Source: a virus (Duplodnaviria; Caudoviricetes). From it: a DNA stretch of 52,335 bases. The notes under the pieces are model-generated. The model did no database searches. It was not told the origin of the DNA and was given only the letters and a program-made list of their open reading frames with translations. The stretch's first letter is position 1, and each line of letters starts with the position of its first letter. Of this stretch, positions 11,259 through 49,559 are shown in pieces. A program made the position numbers and the translations under genes. The DNA lies in IMG/VR virus record IMGVR_UViG_3300036851_000202, positions 1 to 52,335 of that record, one strand, 5' to 3'.

Positions 11259-11297
11259 GCCCCGCTAGCTCAATTGGTCAGAGCATCTGACTCTTAA
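11259..11297 (+). other. 5' half of tRNA-Lys(CUU); candidate attP core
   Basis: GCCCCGC-TA-GCTC-AATTGGTCA-GAGC-A-TCTGA-CTCTTAA; similarity to tRNA ends exactly after the anticodon loop; about 40 bp upstream of the integrase. Confidence 0.8.
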
Positions 11298-11336
11298 CAA
11301 GCCCGGCGTGGCTTCGCATATCCATCCCGTCCGTTT

Positions 11337-24844: not shown

Positions 24845-27034
24845 TTACGATGAGCCGCCGTCCGCATGGACGCCGCCACGGTACTCTTGGAAGTTCACGC
24901 CAACGTCCGAGTAGCCGCGCATCTGAACGCCAAGCACGTTGAATTCGGCGTCGGCCGTTTCGACGGTCGGCATCACGTTGCCGTTGAGGGCGGCGATCGC
25001 GATGACCGGCAGGACGTTCGGATCGGCCAGCAGCCACCAGGCAGTCGAGGTATTGCCCGTGTACGTGGAATTGCTGATGTACGGCGAGCTTTCCAGGCGG
25101 AACCGCCCGCGGAACACGTTGATGTTGGACATGCCGGCCGAAGCGCCGGAAACGATGACCGATTGCGGGTCCAGCAAGGCGCTGGCCGTCGCCTTGAGCG
25201 CCGACGGGACAAGGACAATCGCCGCCTCCATCCCCAGAGGAGTGCCGTCAGGGTTGGTCTGGTTGAGGAAAATCGTCTCGGTTGCAGCCAATCCGGCGAG
25301 CGTCATATCCGCAACGCCGGTATTGATGTTGCTATTGCCGGACGCGAAGAACGACGTCGAGACACCGGACAGGAATTCTGTCCAGAAGATGTGATTTAAG
25401 AGCTTCATCGCACCGTTTCCGAGCTTCATCGGAACGTCGGTCAGGGCTCCGGTGTCATCGTTGATGATGTCCTGCCGCGTAATGGCCAGCATCTTCGCGT
25501 AGGTATCGGCCTTGTTGGTGTAGCTCAGCTCGCCGAGCGTGCCGTGCTTGATTTCGCCGTCGCCGGCAACCTGCTCATACCGCACGGAATCCGTCAGGCT
25601 GACGGTGGTAGCGGTCTTGAAGTCGCGGACGTTCTGAATCTTCGCGATCCGCAGCGGCGTCTGATCTACGGCATTCCAGCCGCGGAATACGAACTTGTTG
25701 GCGACGTTGGAAACGATGTCGGAAATGTCGATCGTGCTGAAGCCCGCAGCGTGGATGTGCTGCCGCGGGGCAGTCATGCGGAAGGCCGCCCGCTGAACCT
25801 CCAGCGTCACGTCCATGTTTCCGTCGTTGAAGCCGTTGGCCTGGGCGCAGAGCAAGAAGAGCTGCTTGAGCCCGATTCGCCCGCGGAACCGCTTGTGCGC
25901 GGCATCCAGCACCTTCTCGTCAAACTGCTTCTCGATATCGGGCAGGTTGCCGGCCTGGCAGAGTGCCGCCTCCAGCACGTCGTTGGTGAGCTGCCCGTCG
26001 CGCTTCGAGGAGAACACGCCGACGCCCGGCGCCATCGTCGTAGCTTCGAGCAATTCCAGACGGAACTTGTCAACGCCCCATTTGCCGTCGATGCCCTGCT
26101 GGGCCAGTTCCTTGATGGCCTTGATTTCATACGGCCGCTTGTCGCAGGCGTTGAGGGCAATATCGGTGATCGCGTCAATGCGGTCGGTTTCGGCCTGCTT
26201 GGCATCAATGCCCTCGTCGAGCTTGACCCGCTTTTTCGGCGGAGTCACCAACTGACTCGTCGTGAAGTTGGCTTCGATCTTCTCTTGCTGCTCGGTCGTG
26301 GCGTTTTCCACGTCGATCCCCATGCTTTCGGCCCATGCTTTGACTTCGGCTTTCATAACTGTCTCCTTGGTAGAAGCGGCCGAAGCCGCGATGGTGACTT
26401 GGGTATCGTCGTCAGCGCCGTGAGAAACGAATGCAAGCCCCTTGAGCGTGCCGACGCGGGTCACGTACATGGGGCCGTCAAAGGTCTGGCCGTTGGCCTC
26501 GACCGTCTTGCCGGCCTTGACCTCCTGAACCTTCTCGGGATTGACTTCAAGACTCGATTGCCACACGTAGCCGTCGCGGGCGCTGTCCACCACTTCATCG
26601 CGGGCGGCGGTAGCGGCGGAGGCGGTTCCGTTGGCGACGAGAGATTTGCCGTCGTTTGCTACGGCGAAATTGCCGACACGCTTGGTGCGGTCGTGGTCGA
26701 GATTGGCGACAAGCACTTTGCTGGGCTTCAGGCCCGCAAGATCGATGACCACTGGCAAATCCCAGCCTTCGATGTCGAGTTTGCCGCCCGTGTAGAATGT
26801 GCTGGTGAACTTGGCCGGACCTTTGCTGGCGCCTTCGCCTTCCGCCGCGCTGATTGTCACGGGTGCGGAGAGGGCGATGATCGCTGGTCGTTTGCCTTTC
26901 GCCATGGCTTGCTCCTTCAATTTGGCCTGACACATGACGACGGCTTGCCCTTGGTCGTGACCTTCGTCCATGACCATCGGCACACAGCGCCGCATGTAGT
27001 CCTCGCGCGATTCGCCGGGCTTAGGAGTGGGCAT
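24845..27034 (-). CDS. prohead protease/scaffold fused to major capsid protein
   Basis: 729 aa; N-terminal LDHD...VG...WQSSL protease-like region; C-terminal V.DFK...GEIKHG.L.E..Y...ADTYAKMLAITRQDIINDD.GA capsid (Mu gpT-like) motifs. Confidence 0.85.
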   Translation of the reverse strand: MPTPKPGESREDYMRRCVPMVMDEGHDQGQAVVMCQAKLKEQAMAKGKRPAIIALSAPVTISAAEGEGASKGPAKFTSTFYTGGKLDIEGWDLPVVIDLAGLKPSKVLVANLDHDRTKRVGNFAVANDGKSLVANGTASAATAARDEVVDSARDGYVWQSSLEVNPEKVQEVKAGKTVEANGQTFDGPMYVTRVGTLKGLAFVSHGADDDTQVTIAASAASTKETVMKAEVKAWAESMGIDVENATTEQQEKIEANFTTSQLVTPPKKRVKLDEGIDAKQAETDRIDAITDIALNACDKRPYEIKAIKELAQQGIDGKWGVDKFRLELLEATTMAPGVGVFSSKRDGQLTNDVLEAALCQAGNLPDIEKQFDEKVLDAAHKRFRGRIGLKQLFLLCAQANGFNDGNMDVTLEVQRAAFRMTAPRQHIHAAGFSTIDISDIVSNVANKFVFRGWNAVDQTPLRIAKIQNVRDFKTATTVSLTDSVRYEQVAGDGEIKHGTLGELSYTNKADTYAKMLAITRQDIINDDTGALTDVPMKLGNGAMKLLNHIFWTEFLSGVSTSFFASGNSNINTGVADMTLAGLAATETIFLNQTNPDGTPLGMEAAIVLVPSALKATASALLDPQSVIVSGASAGMSNINVFRGRFRLESSPYISNSTYTGNTSTAWWLLADPNVLPVIAIAALNGNVMPTVETADAEFNVLGVQMRGYSDVGVNFQEYRGGVHADGGSS

Positions 27035-28595
27035 GGTTCACTCCGTTTGCGTGGCCGTTGAGAAGCCCGCGGCGTTTCATGGTCTGCAAGGCGGCCATGA
27101 CCGATTCATCCGTCACTGGCTGCGAAGATTGACCGGGAGCGCCGCCCTGCTGAACTGGCGGCAGAATCACGTCGAGCAGCCGTTTGCGCATTTCGTCGGT
27201 GCTGATGCCGAAGGATTGGGCCGACTTCTCCAGCTCATCCTCAAAGTCGAGACCGGCATCGCTGTAGAGCGTGTGCAAAAACACCTGCCCGCTCTTGAGC
27301 TTGGCCTGATTGGCGTTGGCTTCCGCCTCTACGTCCGCCACGCGATGCTTCGGCCAGTCCCATAAATGCAGGCGGGCTCCAGCGCCAACAGCGCCGGGAT
27401 TCCCGCCAAGCCAGCCGAAGCGGGCGATGGCCAGATCAAGCCAGGCGTTGAATAGCTTGGAAAGTACGAGTGAGCCGCATTCCATCCGCTGCACGTCAAG
27501 CGAGTCGTAATACGTGCCGTGATCCAGGCGGCCAGAGGCATAGTTGTAATCGGATGAATCTGCGGCGGCCTTGTTGCGCGGCATATTGACCGCGCGGCCC
27601 ATTTCGTTGATGAGCGATTTGTTGAAGTCCGCGTGTGTAGCGCTGGGAAACTTCGGGTCTTGGAAGTTCGGCTTCCAACCCACGGGCAGGAAGTTCATCA
27701 AGCCCTTCTCGATGTCCATCGTGCTGAAGGGGGCGACGAAATCGGCCTCATCGGGAGCCTGATTCGTCTCCATCATCAGCGTCAGCAAGGCCGCACGTTC
27801 GGCAGCCGACAGCGTAGCTTCGCGCCAGCGGCGGGCCGCGGCTCCGCAGTTGAGGGCGCTGCCAAGTTCCGGCGTGCCGCGGTGCTGGCCCGGCCGCCGC
27901 ATTCGGAACCAGTGCAGGACGCTGGCCGCCGGAACGCTTTCCGGCGTCAAATCAAGGAAGGTGCTGTTGGTCGTGCCGGGGTGCTCATTCAGCACGTCGT
28001 AGAAAATCGGGTTGCCGAACTCGTCAAACCAAACGCCGTCGATCCTGTTTTCTTCCGCGAACGGCAGGTAGGGCGTCTGGATTTGTTCGGCCTCGTAGAG
28101 CACTAAATCCATCGGGATCGGATGGTTGACGCCGGGGTTGCGGCGCAGCACGCCGAAGCCTTCCCCGTCAACGTGCTTGGCGTGGGCCATGCACCAGAGC
28201 TTGCGGCGCAGGCCGACTGCCTCGCTCCACAGATGCCAGGTCAGCTCGACCATCTGATTGAAGCCTTGCGAGCCGGTCTGCATTCGCAGAGTCGGGCCGA
28301 CGCCGATCAAATCGTTCGTGATCGTCTGGGCGATGCCGTCGCTGAAGGCGTTGTTGGCGACTTCGTACCGCGAGCGGCTGATGAGCGTGTGCCGAATCTC
28401 TTTCGAGTTGGCCGAATCGGCGTCTAGGCGGTCGGCGTTGCTCCAGTAGTTCTTGAACTCGTCGGTTGTGCGGGCCGCGTCGTAACTCGCCTTGAGTTGA
28501 AGAAAACGCGCCTGCCACATAGCAACCTGCGCGGCGGCGACATTGGCCTTCGCGGGCTTGCGTTTGCTTTTCGATTTGGTGGTCTTCGTGGCCAT
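27021..28595 (-). CDS. lambda-family portal protein
   Basis: YDAA...RSRYEVANN...VLHWF...RPGQHRGTP...DSSDYNYASGRLD. Confidence 0.92.
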   Translation of the reverse strand: MATKTTKSKSKRKPAKANVAAAQVAMWQARFLQLKASYDAARTTDEFKNYWSNADRLDADSANSKEIRHTLISRSRYEVANNAFSDGIAQTITNDLIGVGPTLRMQTGSQGFNQMVELTWHLWSEAVGLRRKLWCMAHAKHVDGEGFGVLRRNPGVNHPIPMDLVLYEAEQIQTPYLPFAEENRIDGVWFDEFGNPIFYDVLNEHPGTTNSTFLDLTPESVPAASVLHWFRMRRPGQHRGTPELGSALNCGAAARRWREATLSAAERAALLTLMMETNQAPDEADFVAPFSTMDIEKGLMNFLPVGWKPNFQDPKFPSATHADFNKSLINEMGRAVNMPRNKAAADSSDYNYASGRLDHGTYYDSLDVQRMECGSLVLSKLFNAWLDLAIARFGWLGGNPGAVGAGARLHLWDWPKHRVADVEAEANANQAKLKSGQVFLHTLYSDAGLDFEDELEKSAQSFGISTDEMRKRLLDVILPPVQQGGAPGQSSQPVTDESVMAALQTMKRRGLLNGHANGVNHAHS

Positions 28596-28819
28596 CAACC
28601 GGCTGCCGGTGGGATCGTCTTGCGGGCTCGCATTCCGCCGAGGCTGTTGGCGTTGTCCGACGCCAGTTCGCCTTTGATTTCCGCGCGGAGTTCGCGCAGT
28701 TCTTTCAGCGTGTAGCTCTGGACCGACTGCCCGCCGACGCTCACGCTCGCGACACCATCGGTCATTGCCGAACGGATCGCGGTTTCAATCGTCGTGAGGT
28801 CGGAAGTGGTCCAGGCCAT
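28595..28819 (-). CDS. gpW-like head-tail joining protein
   Basis: IETAI...GVASVSVGGQSVQSYTLKELRELR; immediately before the portal gene. Confidence 0.75.
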   Translation of the reverse strand: MAWTTSDLTTIETAIRSAMTDGVASVSVGGQSVQSYTLKELRELRAEIKGELASDNANSLGGMRARKTIPPAAG

Positions 28820-42323: not shown

Positions 42324-42863
42324 TTATGCAACGTGCTTCCAGGTTTTGCCTTGCGTAATTTCCCAGACGTATCGTGGCAGCATTTTTGGGTATTTCCTTG
42401 CGATGTCACATGGACGCATGCCGGATGCGTGCAGCCGGCGAATCTCCCTCACGTCGCTTTCCGTAAGTTTCGCCATCCATTGCCTTTCGCCCCTTGGCTG
42501 AGTTCCGTGCTTGGTCCTGTCATCGCAGTTTTCGATATGTGTTCCCCACGCTACGTTTGTCGCTCGGTTGTTGGCCTTGTTTCCGTCCAGATGCCTGCAT
42601 TCCATTCCGTCCGGTCGCGGCCCAACAAATGCTTCCAAAACTACGTGGTGAATCTTTCTTCTGAACTGACCTGACTCATTGCATAGGGTGACATCGCGGT
42701 ACTCTCCACTTGCACACCCGACTAACCGTTTCCATTTGCAGAACGTGATCCCATTCGGTCCTCCGTGGCGACAACTCCAAACCGTTCCGTCGTCGCCAAC
42801 GGCATATCCCTGAAAACCAACTACCTCCCTAAACTCGACTCCGGGTACATTTGGAATATCCAC
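42324..42863 (-). CDS. NUMOD4-HNH endonuclease with C-terminal HTH
   Basis: GYAVGDDGTVWS...IHHVVLEAFVGPRP..MECRHLDGNKANN...KLTESDVREIR. Confidence 0.9.
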   Translation of the reverse strand: MDIPNVPGVEFREVVGFQGYAVGDDGTVWSCRHGGPNGITFCKWKRLVGCASGEYRDVTLCNESGQFRRKIHHVVLEAFVGPRPDGMECRHLDGNKANNRATNVAWGTHIENCDDRTKHGTQPRGERQWMAKLTESDVREIRRLHASGMRPCDIARKYPKMLPRYVWEITQGKTWKHVA

Positions 42864-44876: not shown

Positions 44877-45610
44877 TGCCACACCTTGCTCCCGCTCAGA
44901 GTGACCTTCTTGCCGCCAAGCTCTGCGGAAATCTCGCACGTAAAGCGGTCGCCCTTGGGCAGCGCTTTCATCGTGCAGACCAGCATTTCGCCTGGCGGCG
45001 GCTCTGGTGACGGTGCCAGCTCCGCCGGTCCGAACATCTTCATGGCGATACTCGCCTCATCCGCTTGAGGCTCCCAAATTTGTGGGTTGTACCGCTTGTT
45101 CATCAGGTCAGGAGTACCGTCATCGTCCAAGTGCGGGAAGCCAATGATATGGCCCCACTCATGCGCGCCGACGTGGGCCAACCCGATCGTGTTCCTCTCC
45201 GGCACGCCGAAGACCTCCACGAACTGCTCCATGTCCAGCCGCATCCGTTGCTGCTTTTGCCCTGTGTAGAGTTCGGCATCGGCAAGAATCCCGAGCGGCC
45301 CGTCGATGGTCGTGACCTTCACCAGCACATTGGCCGACGCTTTCGTAACGGCCTGCTTAGGCCGGTGCTTGCATACCTTGGACCACGCGGAGAACGCCGA
45401 TTGCAGCACAGATTCCGTCTTGCCGTCTGACCAACCGGCAATCCTCCCTTCCAGCCACCACGTCCAATCAGGAGACGGAATGGGGTAGAGCTTGCCGTCT
45501 AGGCGAAATTCTTCTTTGACTCCGCAGTAGTGGATTTCCTCTGCGAAGTCACCGGTTGCGCGAGCGATTTGCGGAACAGACCGCCTCGGCTTGCTGGATT
45601 TTTTTGCCAC
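44873..45610 (-). CDS. matrixin-like (M10, metzincin) zinc metalloprotease
   Basis: AFSAWSKV...DGPLGILADA...AHEWGHIIGFPH...LMNKRY (HExxHxxGxxH plus Met-turn). Confidence 0.85.
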   Translation of the reverse strand: MAKKSSKPRRSVPQIARATGDFAEEIHYCGVKEEFRLDGKLYPIPSPDWTWWLEGRIAGWSDGKTESVLQSAFSAWSKVCKHRPKQAVTKASANVLVKVTTIDGPLGILADAELYTGQKQQRMRLDMEQFVEVFGVPERNTIGLAHVGAHEWGHIIGFPHLDDDGTPDLMNKRYNPQIWEPQADEASIAMKMFGPAELAPSPEPPPGEMLVCTMKALPKGDRFTCEISAELGGKKVTLSGSKVWQ

Positions 45611-45613
45611 GGA

Positions 45614-45961
45614 CTACCCCGCCGGAAAGAGTTTCTTCAGCAGGTCCAGGGCGCCCGTCAGGAAGCCCGCCAACTGCGGGGCCAACTTGAGCAGCGTGAA
45701 AATGCCACGCAGCCCGCTGAAGTCAATCACGGCCTGAGACGTTCCGCCTGCGGTCAGGCACTGGGCGATCTGCGATTCCGCAGCGGCCTCTTCCTCGGTC
45801 GGCGTCACGAGCTCCAGGCCGCCACTGGCCGCAGCCGGTGCGGGAATCACCTTGGCGGCGATTTGCTTGACCAGCTCCACAAGCTGCATGACCAGCGGCC
45901 ACACTTCGGCCAGCTTCGGTCCAAACGCGAGCAGGGTCTTCAACAGGTCGATGTACTTCAT
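45614..45961 (-). CDS. amphipathic/hydrophobic protein (holin-like)
   Basis: MKYIDLLKTLLAFGPKLAEVWPL...; GAGG RBS; directly upstream of the protease. Confidence 0.5.
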   Translation of the reverse strand: MKYIDLLKTLLAFGPKLAEVWPLVMQLVELVKQIAAKVIPAPAAASGGLELVTPTEEEAAAESQIAQCLTAGGTSQAVIDFSGLRGIFTLLKLAPQLAGFLTGALDLLKKLFPAG

Positions 45962-46120
45962 TTGCACTTCCTCACTTGAAAACAGGATTGGTTCAGTTAA
46001 CGGGTTGACATACACTTCCCCGCCGTACATCTCGGCGTAGGACTCGGCGAGTGCTTGCGATCGTGCGGGGATCTTGTCGGGGCTGCCTTTGCGGGTGTAG
46101 TAGTAGGTCGTCACTGTAAA

Positions 46121-46212
46121 AACTTCTGGATGGAATCGAACCACCGACAAGTCCTGTCGCTACCAGGACACCACGGGAGCGACCCGCTGCTCTGCCACTG
46201 AGCTACAGAAGC
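46121..46212 (-). ncRNA. tRNA-like RNA with two hairpins replacing the anticodon/variable arms
   Basis: Acceptor GCTTCTG/CAGAAGT; D arm GCTC-AGTGGCA-GAGC; T arm GGTGG-TTCGATT-CCATC; central hairpins GCGGG-TCGCT-CCCGT and GTCCTG-GTAGCGA-CAGGAC. Confidence 0.8.
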
Positions 46213-46217
46213 CAAAT

Positions 46218-46508
46218 TCACTTCACGTCCTCCAACACGGTCTGCGCCTTGACAATCTCCGCGGCCAGTTCCCGCCCCTGGTCGCTGCCTTCCTTCTCCA
46301 GCAGCGCGGCAATCTTCGTGGCCCGCTCGTTATCGAGCCACACGCCGGGGACAGCATCCGCGCCGATCTTCTCGGCTTTCTTCACCGCCTGGTCGTAGCG
46401 CAGGTCAACAGCGCCGACGTGCTCGCCGTGGATGATGGCGGGCGCGGCGAACGGCTCGGGGATGATTACCGTGCCGGATTCGGATGGTGGTTTGCGGCGA
46501 GACGGCAC
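46218..46508 (-). CDS. hypothetical protein
   Basis: 96-aa ORF ending 6 nt before the tRNA-like RNA. Confidence 0.5.
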   Translation of the reverse strand: MPSRRKPPSESGTVIIPEPFAAPAIIHGEHVGAVDLRYDQAVKKAEKIGADAVPGVWLDNERATKIAALLEKEGSDQGRELAAEIVKAQTVLEDVK

Positions 46509-46614
46509 GGCGAAACCGTTATGGTTTCACCCTGCCGGGCAGGATGCCGCGTCAGAGTGCGAATCGTTTAACCGGCGGCCAAGATGGCGCACCGGAGCAA
46601 TTGCTAGGGGAATC

Positions 46615-46881
46615 CTAAACCTTGACGGGGGTTGATGTCAACGCGAAGCCGTGCCAGTACCGCAGTTTCTCGTTCAGCGTCAGTTTGGAATCCTCGTCCA
46701 ATTGGTCCGTTGCGAATGTCACGCAGATACTTCCGCTGGTCACGTCAATAGCGATGTCCTTGACTTCAGTACCGCCGTCCGTGAATGCGCTAATTTCATC
46801 ATCCGAGACAACCGAATCCCACAGGCTGTCGCCGACGCGAGGCACGATGGGAAGCCGAACGTTGCGGCTGGCGTAAGCCAT
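46615..46881 (-). CDS. hypothetical protein
   Basis: 88 aa; LPIVPRVGD motif; may start further upstream. Confidence 0.5.
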   Translation of the reverse strand: MAYASRNVRLPIVPRVGDSLWDSVVSDDEISAFTDGGTEVKDIAIDVTSGSICVTFATDQLDEDSKLTLNEKLRYWHGFALTSTPVKV

Positions 46882-46935
46882 GCCGTCCGTTCCTACAAGA
46901 AAAACCGGAATGTGCTAGTTCGCAAACCCAAGCGG

Positions 46936-47121
46936 TTACGGTCGTCGCGAGCGGGCCGCGATGTCCCAGCCAGCAGTGAGCGCGACCAAGCCGCCCATGC
47001 CCGCAATGACGTAGCCGAGCACCGATTGGTAGTAGATGCCGTAGGCCACGCCAAACGCGCAAACGACTAGGTTGACGAGCAGCTCCGGCCAGGGCGGCCC
47101 GCGCCGGCGAACTTTCGTCAT
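46936..47121 (-). CDS. small two-TM membrane protein
   Basis: Two hydrophobic segments. Confidence 0.5.
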   Translation of the reverse strand: MTKVRRRGPPWPELLVNLVVCAFGVAYGIYYQSVLGYVIAGMGGLVALTAGWDIAARSRRP

Positions 47122-47124
47122 GGC

Positions 47125-47298
47125 TCACCCCTTCGCCTGATTGCCCCGGTTCGACTTCCCCTTCGCGGCCCGCTTCTTCGCCTTAGCCTTCTTGCTGGGC
47201 AGCTTCTTCGGGTCCACCTTCAGGATGCCTGAGACGAAGGCGTCGAAGGGGAGGGGGACGTGGAGGGTCTGTCCAGGTGTCCTAGTCGGTTTCTTCAT
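47125..47298 (-). CDS. 57-aa Lys-rich protein (below the ORF-track cutoff)
   Basis: Translated by hand: MKKPTRTPGQTLHVPLPFDAFVSGILKVDPKKLPSKKAKAKKRAAKGKSNRGNQAKG. Confidence 0.55.
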   Translation of the reverse strand: MKKPTRTPGQTLHVPLPFDAFVSGILKVDPKKLPSKKAKAKKRAAKGKSNRGNQAKG

Positions 47299-47398
47299 GG
47301 AATCCGGCCTTAAAGGCTGTTCAGTTATCGCCTTCCGTCAAACGGGCGATTATGGTAAAAGACTGGTCTTTTCCTCACCTGTCCCCAAGGATTCCGCC

Positions 47399-47971
47399 AT
47401 GACGCCTGAAGCGATTAAAGACCGCGCCAAGCGAATCATCGTGGAGTTGGTTCGCCAAGCCGGCGGTGTATTCTACAACAAGACCAACCTTTACAAGGCG
47501 TTCTGGCGGGCGCATCTCGCCTACGCCGAAACCAATCCCGGCTATCTATCCGCTTGGCCCATCGTGAAGATGCCGGAGGGGCCGGGGATCGACCGATTCA
47601 ACCGCCTCTGCGGCGAGATGCTGGAGGACGGTTGGCTGGACCTCCGCGAGCAGCAATCCGGTCCTCACACGGGAATGGTCTTTGACTTGGGCGAAACTCC
47701 GCCCCCCTGTGCGCTGGACAAGAACGCCGTGGCGGCAATCAGGGCTGGAGTAGCAGTAGCCGGCAAGTGGGCCGCCACCGTGAGCGATGAATCCCACCGC
47801 GATTCGCGAGCGTGGAACCAGGCGGCAATGGGCAAGGAGCTGGACGTTTACAGCGACTTGCTATCCAACGAAGAACTGGCCGAATTGGACAAGGGCCTAG
47901 AGTCGCTTGCTGCGGCGGCAGGATATGCACTATCGGATCGAACGAAAATGAGCGTCAACCCAGTGGGTTAG
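47399..47971 (+). CDS. Panacea/SocA (DUF4065)-like antitoxin domain protein
   Basis: KTNLYKAFWRAHL.Y.......LS.W...KMPEGP...SDESH....W. Confidence 0.7.
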   Translation: MTPEAIKDRAKRIIVELVRQAGGVFYNKTNLYKAFWRAHLAYAETNPGYLSAWPIVKMPEGPGIDRFNRLCGEMLEDGWLDLREQQSGPHTGMVFDLGETPPPCALDKNAVAAIRAGVAVAGKWAATVSDESHRDSRAWNQAAMGKELDVYSDLLSNEELAELDKGLESLAAAAGYALSDRTKMSVNPVG

Positions 47972-48307
47972 CTCGGTTTCGGTCTTGTACTCGATCTGCT
48001 CAAGTTCCTTCAGCGCACGCAGGTCGCCGTCGCTGAGATCCCGCCGCGCAGATCGAATTGACAGGTAGCGAACGACGCCCAGATAGAGACCTAACTGCAG
48101 CCCGGAGTACAAATACTCCGAGAAGTATCGAGTCATAAAGGCGATGGCCAGTTCCCTTGGACCGGCGCAGTGCAGCGAGTCGGTCGCCATGAATTCATCG
48201 AAGTCATGCACCACGCGAAAGCGGCGAGGATCGCCGTTCGTGCGGGTAATAGCGTGGTCGATGATCGTGCGAAACTGAATCCGAAAATCCGCCGATGGAA
48301 CGTGCAT
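47930..48307 (-). CDS. hypothetical protein
   Basis: 125 aa; directly downstream of the tRNA and convergent with the Panacea-like gene. Confidence 0.45.
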   Translation of the reverse strand: MHVPSADFRIQFRTIIDHAITRTNGDPRRFRVVHDFDEFMATDSLHCAGPRELAIAFMTRYFSEYLYSGLQLGLYLGVVRYLSIRSARRDLSDGDLRALKELEQIEYKTETELTHWVDAHFRSIR

Positions 48308-48334
48308 CTTCGCTTGTCCTCGCTACAATGTAAG

Positions 48335-48431
48335 TGCGGCGGACGGGACTCGAACCCGTATGAGGGCCTTGCTAAGGGGACCACTCGCCCGATCCCAAAT
48401 CGGGTGCGGCTACCAGTTTCGCCACCGCCGC
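48335..48431 (-). tRNA. class II (Leu-like body) tRNA with UGG (Pro) anticodon and 28-nt variable region
   Basis: GCGGCGG/CCGCCGC-A; D arm GCG-AAACTGGTAGC-CGC; CCCGA-TTTGGGA-TCGGG; ACGGG-TTCGAGT-CCCGT; CCA not encoded. Confidence 0.85.
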
Positions 48432-48680
48432 GCTTTCTCATTCACAACGTGCATCCTGTTGCACTTCTTCTTGGTGCGGGTCGCGGCGGCCTAGCCGCGG
48501 CCCCACCAACGGGCCAACTAGACGGATTGTAGGGCCTTCCACCACCCAATTCAATGGCCGTCCTGATATCTGTCGGCCGGACCACGCCGCGGATGAACTC
48601 CGGCCGGCTCTTGACCTCCCACGTGGTGCTGATAAAGTTTATCAGTGGAGTTGACATGAATCCGTGTTAGGAGAGTGACC

Positions 48681-49559
48681 ATGCCCAGAAATGATCCTGA
48701 ACTCCCGGTGGCGCAAGCTGGTAGCCGACGCAAGCGGAGTCCGATGTACCCCTCTCTCACGCTTGAGCAGGCCCTGCAACGCGCTGAAGTGCTTCACGAC
48801 AAGTGCGGCGAACACACCTCAACGCTTGAAGAGGCGGCGGTGGCTTGGGGGCAAAGCCCGACGAGCAGTGGCGTGCTACAGGCGGTTTCCGCCTTGAAAC
48901 AGTACGGATTGCTGGCGGATGAGGGAAGCCGCGAAGATCGCCTTGTCCGCCTGACCGATGCGGCCCTGGACATTCTGATCCATGAGCCTGGATCGGCAGA
49001 GAGGCGTCGGCTCATTCAAGAAGCTGCTCTCACCCCGAAATTGCACCGGGAACTATGGGACAAATTCGGAGGCTCCCTGCCACCAAACGACGGGCCGCTT
49101 CGCCTTTACCTATTGCGACAGCGTGAGGAAAGCACATTTAACCATGCCCATGTGGACAGTTTTATCAGCGATTTCCGCGAGACGATAGCCTTTGCGAAGC
49201 TGGTGCCGATGTCTATAATCGCGATGGCAGATGACAGCGAGTCCGAGAGTAGCGAGTCGAGCGGTTCCATGAGCCTATCGTCAGAGAGTTCCAGCGTCAG
49301 CAGTGTAAGTAGCGCTGGCAGTTTTAGCAGTTCCACCCGTAATTTGCCGACGAATCCTGCTGGGAAGCAGGCTGGGCAAGTATTGCGAATCCCCGTGACG
49401 CTGCCGACCCTAAAGGTAGCCTGGCTCGAAGTTCCCGAGCGGATGACTGAGGCGGAATTCAGCACGCTTCGTGATGCACTGAACCTGTTTCATGATGCCC
49501 TTGTAGTGTCGCCGCAGGTGCCCGCTGATCCGCAGCAGCCGGGGCCGGCTGCTACTTAG
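48681..49559 (+). CDS. accessory protein, probable winged-helix N-terminus
   Basis: RSPMYPSLTLEQAL...AWGQSPTSSG....SALKQYGLL...VRLT; AGGAG RBS; Ser-rich linker. Confidence 0.7.
   Translation: MPRNDPELPVAQAGSRRKRSPMYPSLTLEQALQRAEVLHDKCGEHTSTLEEAAVAWGQSPTSSGVLQAVSALKQYGLLADEGSREDRLVRLTDAALDILIHEPGSAERRRLIQEAALTPKLHRELWDKFGGSLPPNDGPLRLYLLRQREESTFNHAHVDSFISDFRETIAFAKLVPMSIIAMADDSESESSESSGSMSLSSESSSVSSVSSAGSFSSSTRNLPTNPAGKQAGQVLRIPVTLPTLKVAWLEVPERMTEAEFSTLRDALNLFHDALVVSPQVPADPQQPGPAAT

What the first reader, a model, noticed from the sequence alone, without database searches (positions are those of the whole stretch)
46121..46212. tRNA mimic whose anticodon arm is replaced by two hairpins with complementary loops
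Seen: canonical acceptor, D and T arms (elbow intact). The anticodon-position hairpin has a 5-nt loop UCGCU, and an extra perfect 6-bp hairpin has the loop GUAGCGA. UCGCU is the exact complement of AGCGA (extendable to GUCGCU/AGCGAC), predicting a kissing-loop/pseudoknot or a two-state switch. Intact stems argue against simple decay. It cannot decode normally and lies just upstream of the putative lysis operon. Inference: a novel structured ncRNA, for example a decoy for tRNA-targeting defence enzymes, an RNase P processing signal, or a regulatory switch.
Basis: partly seen in the sequence, partly recalled or inferred. Interest (0 to 1): 0.85.

Follow-up and report, generated by a model that had tools for sequence, protein, structure and literature searches.

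The report
Odd phage tRNA with extra hairpin
This soil phage carries a gene that is clearly derived from a transfer RNA, but its codon-reading loop is shrunken and it has an extra inserted hairpin, so it probably does not read codons normally, and I found no second copy anywhere to show what it does.

Summary
On the minus strand, 46212..46121 folds into a five-helix cloverleaf. The acceptor, D and T arms are intact. There is a 5-bp hairpin with a 5-nt loop (UCGCU) and a perfect 6-bp hairpin with a 7-nt loop (GUAGCGA). The loops are exact complements.

It is not a new RNA family. Rfam tRNA scores 43.8 bits (cut-off 29), and ARAGORN calls it tRNA-Ala(CGC). The first hairpin sits at the anticodon-arm position. 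The second is a 21-nt insert in the variable loop, flanked by a UGUC repeat. The rest resembles Lys/Thr-type class-I tRNAs.

The complementarity has a chance of 0.0037 for that loop pair and 0.039 for any pair of the four loops. Folds containing the loop-loop helix hold about 3% of the ensemble. None of 33 other two-hairpin phage tRNAs shows it.

I found no homologue in viral, metagenome or phage collections, no RNA data and no informative neighbours, so covariation cannot be tested.

Two distant relatives of the phage carry other irregular tRNA-likes, one with no anticodon loop at all. This scan had already noted phage tRNAs with a second hairpin on other DNA.

Best reading (0.45): a non-decoding tRNA-like RNA cut out of its operon transcript by RNase P and RNase Z. 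Rivals: a working GCG reader, a pseudogene, or a kissing switch or decoy.

The parts
46121..46212 (-). tRNA-derived gene, 92 nt, five-helix cloverleaf
   Evidence: Rfam RF00005 at 43.8 bits. ARAGORN tRNA-Ala(cgc) at 46120-46213. MFE fold.
46173..46187 (-). Hairpin 1 at the anticodon-arm position: 5 bp, one of them G-U, with the 5-nt loop UCGCU (loop at 46178-46182). It can also be read as 4 bp plus a 7-nt loop with anticodon CGC.
   Evidence: Infernal aligns it to the anticodon arm with the loop two bases short. Pair probabilities are 0.83-0.94. The sequence is unique in the window.
46151..46169 (-). Hairpin 2 in the variable region: perfect 6 bp with the 7-nt loop GUAGCGA (loop at 46157-46163)
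   Evidence: Fold. Pair probability 0.84. Unique in the window even with 3 mismatches allowed. Treated by Infernal as a variable-region insertion.
46146..46166 (-). 21-nt insert relative to a class-I tRNA. It follows a UGUC and ends in a second UGUC, a 4-nt direct repeat. Removing it leaves a 71-nt class-I tRNA.
   Evidence: Read. Compared with the GUGUC variable loop of Streptomyces phage Alone3 tRNA-Lys(ctt) in alignment A2.
46129..46145 (-). T arm, 5 bp with loop UUCGAUU
46189..46203 (-). D arm, 4 bp with a 7-nt loop that includes GG
46218..46508 (-). Upstream 96-aa ORF. Its stop codon ends 5 nt before the tRNA gene.
   Evidence: GC3 is 0.82. No family or homologue found.
45614..46114 (-). 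Downstream ORF. It is open from a GTG 6 nt after the tRNA end. There is also an in-frame ATG at 45961 preceded by GAGGAAG.
   Evidence: GC3 is 0.69 for the first 153 nt and 0.83 for the rest. No family found.
46612..46641 (-). Promoter-like site (TTGACA, 18 nt, TAGGAT) upstream of the 96-aa ORF
   Evidence: Consensus scan only.
48335..48431 (-). Second irregular long-arm tRNA of the phage: Leu-type D arm, anticodon loop with UGG. Its variable-arm loop shares a UAGC-purine-A motif with hairpin 2.
   Evidence: Rfam at 51.8 bits. Not found by ARAGORN. Fold. Motif chance 0.003 for that exact form and 0.10 for any shared 4-mer.

Best explanation
It is a genuine phage gene derived from a class-I (Lys/Thr-like) tRNA. 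Two changes set it apart from an ordinary tRNA. The anticodon loop is contracted to five bases (U-CGC-U). A 21-nt insert in the variable loop forms a perfect 6-bp hairpin with a 7-nt loop.

It lies 5 nt after the stop of one ORF and 6 nt before the next open frame on the same strand, so I infer that it is transcribed as part of that gene row. Its acceptor stem, T arm, D arm and elbow nucleotides are intact. I therefore infer that host RNase P cuts at its 5' end and RNase Z or exonucleases trim its 3' end. CCA is not encoded, so it would have to be added.

That processing would split the transcript between the 96-aa ORF and the downstream genes and release a stable tRNA-shaped RNA of about 92 nt. 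I think this RNA is not an ordinary decoder.

Shown: the sequence, the fold, the tRNA family match, the position between ORFs and the standard genetic code of the phage. Inferred: transcription, processing and loss of decoding.

The loop-loop complementarity is real. I treat it as unproven in function. It may be chance, or a by-product of how the insert arose.
For: - The tRNA family match and the full cloverleaf are clear.
- Conserved core positions are visible in the sequence: U8, A14, GG in the D loop, the UUCGA T loop, a purine 15 with pyrimidine 48 pair, and A26 (alignment).
- The anticodon loop is two bases short of the model. If it is opened to 7 nt, the stem is only 4 bp, positions 32 and 38 are G and C, and position 37 is U.
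- The 5' 24 nt equal Deinococcus tRNA-Thr(GGU) genes. Nt 1-30 are 90% like Streptomyces phage tRNA-Lys(ctt). The loop carries neither a Thr nor a Lys anticodon, and there is no G3-U70 pair for alanine.
- The phage uses the standard code. GCG aligns with Ala in 19 of 23 conserved columns and CCG with Pro in 25 of 26.
- ORFs abut the gene on the same strand.
- Two distant relatives of the phage (portal 58% and 48% identical) also carry irregular tRNA-likes between same-strand ORFs. One has an 8-bp anticodon stem capped by a 4-nt loop, so it cannot decode, yet it keeps perfect acceptor, D and T arms.
- tRNA-like elements that direct RNase P and RNase Z cuts in mRNAs are established in plant mitochondria (abstract of PMC1920247).
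- Irregular soil tRNAs that are not used in translation are reported in sections 14 and 16 of PMC5389517.
Against: - No RNA data exist for this DNA, so transcription and processing are unshown.
- No homologue was found, so there is no evidence of selection on any part.
- A bare processing signal would not need a 92-nt RNA with two perfect extra hairpins.
- U33 precedes CGC, and a strong 32-38 pair is the direction expected for G+C-rich anticodons (recalled knowledge). Decoding of GCG is therefore not excluded.
- The irregular tRNA-likes in the relatives are not at the same genome position and are not demonstrably homologous.
- All five stems are perfect or G-U-containing. That fits a selected structure with a function beyond being cut out.
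Confidence: 0.45

Rival explanations
1. It is a working but unusual tRNA that reads GCG. The innermost G-C pair of hairpin 1 opens, or acts as a 32-38 pair, to give a 7-nt loop with U33 and anticodon CGC on a 4-bp stem. The extra hairpin serves as a handle for a charging or modifying enzyme, as has been proposed for other phage tRNAs with a second hairpin.
For: - ARAGORN reads it this way, as tRNA-Ala(cgc).
- The tRNA core is fully intact.
- A large phage family has the same layout: a class-I D arm, a linker, a second hairpin with a 7-nt loop, and a linker. It spans 45 loci, all with UAU in the first loop and GAU in the second.
- GCG is a commonly used Ala codon in the phage.
Against: - The stem would have only 4 bp and position 37 would be U, which is very rare by recalled knowledge.
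- There is no G3-U70 for AlaRS.
- Neither loop shows a Thr or Lys anticodon for the body type.
- The second loop's central triplet AGC fits no anticodon-reading synthetase that I can name.
- The Rfam score is lowered by the loop deletion.
- The phage code is standard, so any charging other than Ala would mistranslate its own proteins.
Confidence: 0.2
2. It is a neutral or decaying tRNA pseudogene. A class-I tRNA lost two loop bases and gained a 21-nt snap-back or duplication insert. The perfect hairpin and the loop complementarity are by-products of that mutation, for example template switching that copied nearby sequence in reverse complement.
For: - The insert is flanked by a 4-nt direct repeat (UGUC), and removing it leaves a 71-nt class-I tRNA.
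- No homologue, and so no sign of conservation, was found in any collection searched.
- The complementarity is only modestly unlikely (0.039 for any loop pair).
- Broken or partial tRNA copies do occur in the relatives.
Against: - All five helices and the conserved core bases are intact, so any decay would have to be very recent.
- The gene fits exactly into a short gap between ORFs.
- The phage keeps a second irregular long-arm tRNA, whose variable loop shares a motif with this one.
Confidence: 0.2
3. One reading: the two complementary loops pair, as a kissing loop, a pseudoknot or a two-state switch. The RNA would then act as a regulator, or as a decoy for tRNA-targeting defence enzymes.
For: - The complement is exact over 5 bp, or 6 bp with one stem base from each hairpin, with chance 0.0037 for this loop pair.
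- The duplex of the two loop regions is computed at -12.5 kcal/mol.
- Many bacterial defences attack tRNAs, and phage tRNAs can counter them (abstract of PMC10264068; titles and abstract openings in the listing).
Against: - Structures holding the loop-loop helix lose the acceptor stem, are 2.9 kcal/mol worse and hold about 3% of the ensemble.
- By my geometric inference, which I did not compute, a 5-nt loop that is fully paired must stack coaxially with its partner, and the 3-nt linker between the hairpins cannot span that in one molecule.
- 0 of 33 other two-hairpin phage tRNAs has 5 or more complementary loop bases.
- The phage has no tRNA-repair, synthetase or defence-related gene in my Pfam scans of 60 ORFs; PHROGs was run on 20 ORFs, 8 of them also among the 60.
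Confidence: 0.12

Closest known systems
Class-I tRNA-Lys(CUU) and tRNA-Thr genes of phages and bacteria, for example Streptomyces phage Alone3 tRNA-Lys(ctt) (OR725492.1) and Deinococcus tRNA-Thr(GGU)
   Same: - Acceptor 5' strand plus D arm: the first 24 nt equal the Deinococcus tRNA-Thr(GGU) genes.
- Nt 1-30 are 90% like the Alone3 tRNA-Lys.
- The 5' strand of the anticodon stem is the same as in Alone3, and so is the GUGUC variable loop.
- Both have a G1-U72 end pair and a 7/5 acceptor/T layout.
   Different: - The anticodon loop has 5 nt, not 7, and carries CGC rather than CUU or NGU.
- A 21-nt hairpin insert follows the variable loop.
- CCA is not encoded.
Class-II (long variable arm) tRNAs: Leu, Ser, Tyr, Sec
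   Same: Five-helix cloverleaf with a stem-loop between the anticodon and T arms.
   Different: - The D arm is the class-I type, 4 bp with a 7-nt loop. A real tRNA-Tyr has 3 bp with an 11-nt loop.
- The extra hairpin is set off by 3-nt and 5-nt linkers and has a 7-nt loop. The tRNA-Tyr has 0-nt and 3-nt linkers and a 4-nt loop.
- The anticodon is not Leu, Ser or Tyr.
Phage tRNAs with a second, anticodon-arm-like hairpin in the variable region. I saw the UAU/GAU family in IMG/VR loci (for example L146). It is described only in this scan's own notes (e1-5896621, e1-122484, e1-5844104, e1-5936730). I found no paper on it with the searches.
   Same: Class-I D arm, then the first hairpin, an unpaired linker, a second hairpin with a 7-nt loop, an unpaired linker, and the T arm. 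The overall length is about 91-92 nt.
   Different: - Those tRNAs have a normal 7-nt first loop, and their second loop shows the cognate anticodon (GAU).
- Here the first loop has 5 nt, and the second loop (central AGC) matches no identity rule that I can name.
- There is no sequence kinship.
- Their loops are not complementary.
Allo-tRNAs and irregular tRNAs of soil Acidobacteria (Mukai et al. 2017, PMC5389517; sections 14 and 16 read)
   Same: Soil origin. A long-arm tRNA shape whose anticodon does not fit its body. That paper reports five-stem variants and members that are not used in translation.
   Different: Allo-tRNAs are defined by an 8/4 or 9/3 acceptor/T configuration. This element is 7/5.
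t-elements of plant mitochondria and the tRNA punctuation of organelle transcripts (Forner et al. 2007, PMC1920247; abstract read)
   Same: A tRNA-like fold placed at the border of coding regions. It is expected to direct RNase P and RNase Z cuts.
   Different: Different organisms. Processing here is only inferred. This element keeps a far more complete tRNA shape.
Phage tRNAs selected to escape anticodon nucleases (van den Berg et al. 2023, PMC10264068; abstract read)
   Same: A phage-encoded tRNA whose anticodon loop departs from the host type.
   Different: Those are working tRNAs with point changes in a 7-nt loop. Here the loop is contracted and its identity is unclear.

Membership tests
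tRNA (Rfam RF00005) | Covariance-model score at or above the gathering score | tested here: met
   43.8 bits against 29, over the full model 1-71.
tRNA (Rfam RF00005) | Acceptor 7 bp, D arm, T arm 5 bp and conserved core nucleotides | tested here: met
   Alignment and fold. U8, A14, GG in the D loop and a UUCGA T loop are read.
tRNA (Rfam RF00005) | 5-bp anticodon stem with a 7-nt loop, U33 and purine 37 | tested here: not met
   The loop has 5 nt. If it is opened to 7 nt, the stem has 4 bp and position 37 is U.
tRNA (Rfam RF00005) | Aminoacylation and codon reading | not testable with these tools
   No RNA or biochemical data. No identity set is recognisable: no G3-U70, and no Thr or Lys anticodon.
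Class-II tRNA (Leu/Ser/Tyr/Sec) | Long variable arm forming a stem-loop | tested here: met
   6-bp stem with a 7-nt loop.
Class-II tRNA (Leu/Ser/Tyr/Sec) | 3-bp D stem with an enlarged D loop, and a variable arm that abuts the anticodon stem | tested here: not met
   The D arm is 4 bp with a 7-nt loop, and the linkers are 3 and 5 nt. The reference tRNA-Tyr has 3 bp with an 11-nt loop and linkers of 0 and 3 nt.
Allo-tRNA (Mukai 2017) | 8/4 or 9/3 acceptor/T-stem configuration | tested here: not met
   The layout is 7/5. The definition comes from the abstract of PMC5389517.
Phage tRNAs with a second anticodon-arm-like hairpin (UAU/GAU family and kin) | Class-I D arm plus a linker-flanked second hairpin with a 7-nt loop | tested here: met
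   Same layout as L146 and 44 other loci.
Phage tRNAs with a second anticodon-arm-like hairpin (UAU/GAU family and kin) | Normal 7-nt first anticodon loop, and a second loop that displays the cognate anticodon of the body | tested here: not met
   The first loop has 5 nt. The second loop, GUAGCGA, holds no Thr or Lys anticodon.
Kissing-loop or pseudoknot regulatory RNA | Loop-loop complementarity kept by covariation in homologues | not testable with these tools
   No homologue was found. In this one sequence the complement is exact.
Kissing-loop or pseudoknot regulatory RNA | The paired state is energetically competitive | tested here: inconclusive
   The nested alternative scores -32.1 against -35.0 kcal/mol, with pair probability 0.03. 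A true kissing geometry cannot be computed with these tools.
tRNA-like processing signal (t-element type) | tRNA-like fold at the border of same-strand coding regions | tested here: met
   It lies 5 nt after the upstream stop codon and 6 nt before the downstream open frame.
tRNA-like processing signal (t-element type) | Cleavage by RNase P and RNase Z in vivo | not testable with these tools
   No RNA run is listed for this DNA.

The most novel reading that the evidence does not exclude
The two loops are working partner sites. The second hairpin shows the codon GCG flanked by A on each side, much as a T-box specifier loop shows a codon followed by a purine (recalled knowledge). The first hairpin shows the matching anticodon CGC flanked by U.

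A 5-nt loop cannot pair fully within one molecule across a 3-nt linker. The natural product would therefore be a head-to-tail dimer held by two reciprocal kissing contacts. Both coaxial stacks would have the same length (5 + 5 + 6 bp).

Alternatively, each site may capture a host partner, such as the anticodon loop of a host tRNA. The phage's second odd tRNA carries the same UAGC-purine-A motif in its variable loop. The two RNAs could then be a pair of tRNA-shaped decoys or sponges that use a displayed codon-like loop.
Probability: 0.1. Interest if true: 0.8.

Novelty: new variant of a known kind. Interest (0 to 1): 0.4.

Why it matters
Phage tRNA genes are usually explained by codon supply or by escape from tRNA-cutting defences. 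This gene fits neither explanation easily. It keeps everything a cell needs to recognise and process a tRNA, but it lacks a normal reading loop.

It adds a data point to a growing set of irregular, hairpin-bearing phage tRNAs.

If such RNAs are made and are stable, they point to uses of the tRNA shape outside decoding: transcript punctuation, enzyme sponging or RNA-RNA capture. As it stands, this is one sequence from one soil contig with no conservation or expression data. Its main value is as a lead and as a caution for automatic annotation, which will label it tRNA-Ala.

Tried and rejected
Homologue hunts that found nothing useful:
- megablast and blastn of 45000-49000 against 50,697 phage records: no match.
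- An exact 37-mer in viral contigs: 0.
- Neighbour proteins in viral contigs: 245 aa, 96 aa and 558 aa, with no relatives.
- The large protein database: the 245-aa protein has one relative, P0002, at 47% identity. The 96-aa protein matches only itself.
- Two metagenome pattern scans: 0 and 0.
- Rfam tRNA on the 45 records that hold a portal relative: 6 records with a match and 7 matches of 57-77 nt, none long-armed.
- cmscan and ARAGORN on seven long relative contigs. L130 and L131 were covered by ARAGORN only.
- blastn of the 92 nt against phages: 626 records with partial matches and 0 covering 80% or more.

Other negative or uninformative results:
- A pattern scan for kin of the second tRNA gave 18 loci, none with its variable arm.
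- The Deinococcus lead gave no host evidence. The portal was found in 0 of 4 and then 0 of 301 sampled genomes of that phylum.
- The hairpin sequences are not repeated elsewhere in the window.
- No RNA holder is listed for this DNA. One soil DNA run holds it and is probably its source. Laying that run showed only the source contig, with no variants.
- The protein atlas gave no usable hit for either neighbouring ORF.

Readings that I rejected:
- Allo-tRNA membership, because the layout is 7/5.
- Recoding, because the phage uses the standard code.
- A replacement tRNA for tRNA-dependent lysogeny (abstract of PMC10865867). The anticodon is not that of the tRNA-Lys half at the candidate attP site.
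- ARAGORN's tRNA-Leu(gag) at 24953-25039. It lies inside the capsid-protease ORF and has no Rfam match.

Limits:
- Literature searches found no description of this layout. That holds only for those term sets in the held library.
- Supplementary files of papers were not opened. Supplementary Figures S5-S7 of PMC5389517 may show comparable five-stem tRNAs.
Full report
What the DNA is. The window is a complete-looking IMG/VR virus record of 52,335 bp with direct terminal repeats and 60.6% G+C. It is held by one soil-metagenome DNA run, which is probably its source. It encodes a lambda-type large terminase, a portal, a protease-capsid fusion, an Erf-type annealing protein, an exonuclease and a tyrosine integrase, so it is a temperate tailed phage. 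The host is unknown.

The observation. On the minus strand, 46212..46121 matches the Rfam tRNA model over its full length at 43.8 bits against a cut-off of 29. ARAGORN calls it tRNA-Ala(cgc). The minimum-free-energy structure is a five-helix cloverleaf at -35.0 kcal/mol with z -1.9. It has a 7-bp acceptor stem and a 4-bp D stem with a 7-nt loop. Hairpin 1 has 5 bp and the loop UCGCU. A 3-nt linker leads to hairpin 2, which has 6 perfect pairs and the loop GUAGCGA. A 5-nt linker leads to a 5-bp T stem with a UUCGAUU loop. The pair probabilities of the two middle hairpins are 0.83-0.94 and 0.84. UCGCU and AGCGA are exact complements.

What the layout really is. Infernal aligns hairpin 1 to the anticodon arm, with a loop two bases shorter than the model, and treats hairpin 2 as a 23-nt insertion in the variable region. 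The anticodon arm is therefore not replaced by two hairpins. The RNA is a tRNA with a contracted anticodon loop and a hairpin in the variable region.

The body is class-I. The D arm is 4 bp with a 7-nt loop, whereas a real class-II tRNA-Tyr folded for comparison has 3 bp with an 11-nt loop and a variable arm that abuts the anticodon stem.

The first 24 nt are identical to tRNA-Thr(GGU) genes of four Deinococcus-group genomes, which were the only exact matches among the species-representative genomes. Nt 1-30 are 90% identical to tRNA-Lys(ctt) of Streptomyces phages. Other partial matches are annotated Asn, Pro and Val, so the isotype is not settled.

In the alignment with the Alone3 tRNA-Lys, the 5' strand of the anticodon stem and the GUGUC variable loop are shared. 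In the element, GUGUC is followed by 21 extra bases that end in UUGUC. The insert is thus flanked by a UGUC direct repeat, and without it the RNA would be a 71-nt class-I tRNA.

Can it decode? As folded, the loop has five bases. If the innermost G-C pair opens, the loop becomes G-U-CGC-U-C on a 4-bp stem. U33 is present, but positions 32 and 38 can form a Watson-Crick pair, and position 37 is U, which is very rare by recalled knowledge.

No identity set is recognisable. There is no G3-U70 for alanine, no Thr or Lys anticodon, and a G1-U72 end pair with U73. CCA is not encoded.

The phage itself uses the standard code. In conserved columns of seven structural proteins aligned to relatives, GCG stands for Ala in 19 of 23, CCG for Pro in 25 of 26 and ACG for Thr in 14 of 14. 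Ordinary decoding is doubtful but not excluded.

Is the loop complementarity meaningful? The chance that a 5-nt loop is fully complementary to a 7-nt loop is 0.0037. The chance that any two of the four loops share five complementary bases is 0.039.

The best nested fold that contains the GUCGCU/AGCGAC helix costs 2.9 kcal/mol more and destroys the acceptor stem. Those pairs have probability 0.03. A true kissing contact cannot be computed here. My own geometric inference is that a fully paired 5-nt loop must stack coaxially with its partner, and that a 3-nt linker between the two hairpins cannot allow this within one molecule. A contact between two molecules is possible.

I folded 88 other long-insert phage tRNA middles, and 33 of them form two hairpins. 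None has five complementary loop bases, two have four and three have three. Complementarity is therefore not a feature of the class.

Search for relatives. None was found. The searches are listed in Tried and rejected. They covered the phage database, viral contigs by exact and degenerate patterns, two metagenome scans, neighbouring proteins and 45 records that hold a portal relative.

Gene content shared with the longer relatives is limited to the structural module, plus an integrase, an exonuclease and an HNH gene in single relatives. The 40-52 kb region around the element has no counterpart, apart from the HNH match of ORF 42324-42863 in G035.

Context in kin and in other phages. Two of the long relative contigs carry irregular tRNA-likes of their own.
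- G040 has a 71-nt element scoring 38.4 bits. Its anticodon arm is an 8-bp stem with a 4-nt loop, and ARAGORN finds only a two-base 'anticodon'. Its acceptor, D and T arms are perfect.
- G007 has a 78-nt Thr(CGU)-like element with a bulged D stem, a mismatch in the anticodon stem and a 10-nt variable region.

Both lie between same-strand ORFs. They are not at the position of this element, and homology is not demonstrable.

The window has a second irregular tRNA at 48431..48335, scoring 51.8 bits, with a Leu-type D arm, a UGG anticodon and a long arm.

A pattern scan of viral contigs also turned up a large family of about 91-nt phage tRNAs with the same overall layout as the element. They have a class-I D arm, a first loop with UAU, a linker, a 4-bp hairpin whose 7-nt loop holds GAU, and another linker. 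The family covers 45 loci. Earlier notes of this scan describe such 'second anticodon arm' tRNAs on other DNA. I saw the family independently, but I did not test the proposed function.

Neighbourhood. The gene begins 5 nt after the stop of a 96-aa ORF and ends 6 nt before a GTG that opens the next frame. A better ribosome-binding site precedes an in-frame ATG at 45961. A promoter-like site lies upstream of the 96-aa ORF. The flanking ORFs match no family. The only recognisable gene nearby is an M10 peptidase, so 'lysis operon' is unverified. My Pfam scans of 60 ORFs found no tRNA-repair, synthetase or defence gene. PHROGs was run on only 20 ORFs, 8 of which were also in the Pfam set.

Reading. 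What the sequence guarantees is an intact tRNA top half inside a gene row. By established knowledge of RNase P and RNase Z, which recognise the acceptor and T arms and the elbow (recalled), such an RNA would be cut out of its transcript. That would separate the upstream ORF from the downstream genes and leave a stable tRNA-shaped RNA. This parallels the t-elements of plant mitochondria (abstract of PMC1920247).

The contracted loop, the U at position 37, the missing identity set and the anticodon-less cousin in G040 make a non-decoding role the most likely one (0.45). A working GCG reader (0.2), a recent pseudogene whose hairpin and complementarity came from the insertion event (0.2), and a kissing switch or decoy (0.12) remain open. 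Irregular soil tRNAs that are charged but not used, or not charged at all, have been reported (PMC5389517, section 16). Phage tRNAs are also discussed as counters to tRNA-targeting defences (abstract of PMC10264068).

Verdict. The element is a new variant within the known kind 'irregular phage tRNA or tRNA-like gene'. It is not a new RNA class, and it stands on a single sequence. Interest is moderate.

Noticed in passing
L117 11383-11453 (+), contig G040, a portal relative at 48% identity: A 71-nt tRNA-like gene (Rfam 38.4 bits). Its anticodon arm is an 8-bp stem capped by a 4-nt loop, so it has no anticodon. The acceptor, D and T arms are perfect, and it lies between same-strand ORFs.
   Followed up: partly
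L119 8661-8738 (-), contig G007, a portal relative at 58% identity: A 78-nt Thr(CGU)-like tRNA (Rfam 42.6 bits) with a bulged D stem, a C-A mismatch in the anticodon stem and a 10-nt variable region. The MFE fold merges the middle into one long irregular hairpin. It lies just after the exonuclease homologue.
   Followed up: partly
window 48335-48431 (-): A second irregular tRNA with a Leu-type D arm, A73, anticodon loop UUUGGGA (UGG, proline) and a long variable arm. ARAGORN misses it. Its variable loop shares UAGC-purine-A with hairpin 2 of the finding. The chance is 0.003 for that exact form and 0.10 for any shared 4-mer.
   Followed up: partly
IMG/VR loci such as L146, L134 and L132 (45 loci): A large family of phage tRNAs of about 91 nt. 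The first loop holds UAU, and a linker-flanked second hairpin has a 7-nt loop that holds GAU, the ordinary isoleucine anticodon. This is the same family as in earlier notes of this scan.
   Followed up: partly
L010 and L044 (IMG/VR): A phage tRNA with a class-I D arm, a CUA (amber-reading) anticodon loop and a long variable arm. CCA is encoded.
   Followed up: no
L200 654-746 (IMG/VR, a 42.6-kb DTR phage, not a portal relative): A tRNA-like gene with the same anticodon-stem sequence and a similar variable loop as the finding, but with a 24-nt extension inside the anticodon arm that ends in a 7-nt loop holding GAU. Its acceptor stem is imperfect.
   Followed up: partly
window 24953-25039 (+): ARAGORN's tRNA-Leu(gag) lies inside the protease-capsid ORF 24845-27034 and has no Rfam match. 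It is most likely a false positive.
   Followed up: yes
window 11259-11300 (+): The 5' half of a tRNA-Lys(CUU), from the acceptor strand to the anticodon loop, stands just upstream of the integrase gene and is a candidate attP. G040 carries a similar 5' half of a tRNA with a UUU loop, and G025 carries a 3' tRNA half at its contig end.
   Followed up: partly
window 46277-46289 (-) versus 46155-46166 (-): A 13-nt stretch inside the upstream 96-aa ORF closely resembles the 3' part of hairpin 2, including its loop, with one mismatch and one extra base. It could therefore also pair with the loop of hairpin 1. This is probably chance.
   Followed up: no
My Pfam scans of the ORFs in this stretch gave no family at E up to 0.01.
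   Followed up: partly
window 28551-28637 (+): A weak, sub-threshold Rfam match to DUF3800-VII RNA, at 27.3 bits against a cut-off of 36.2 and E 0.33.
   Followed up: no
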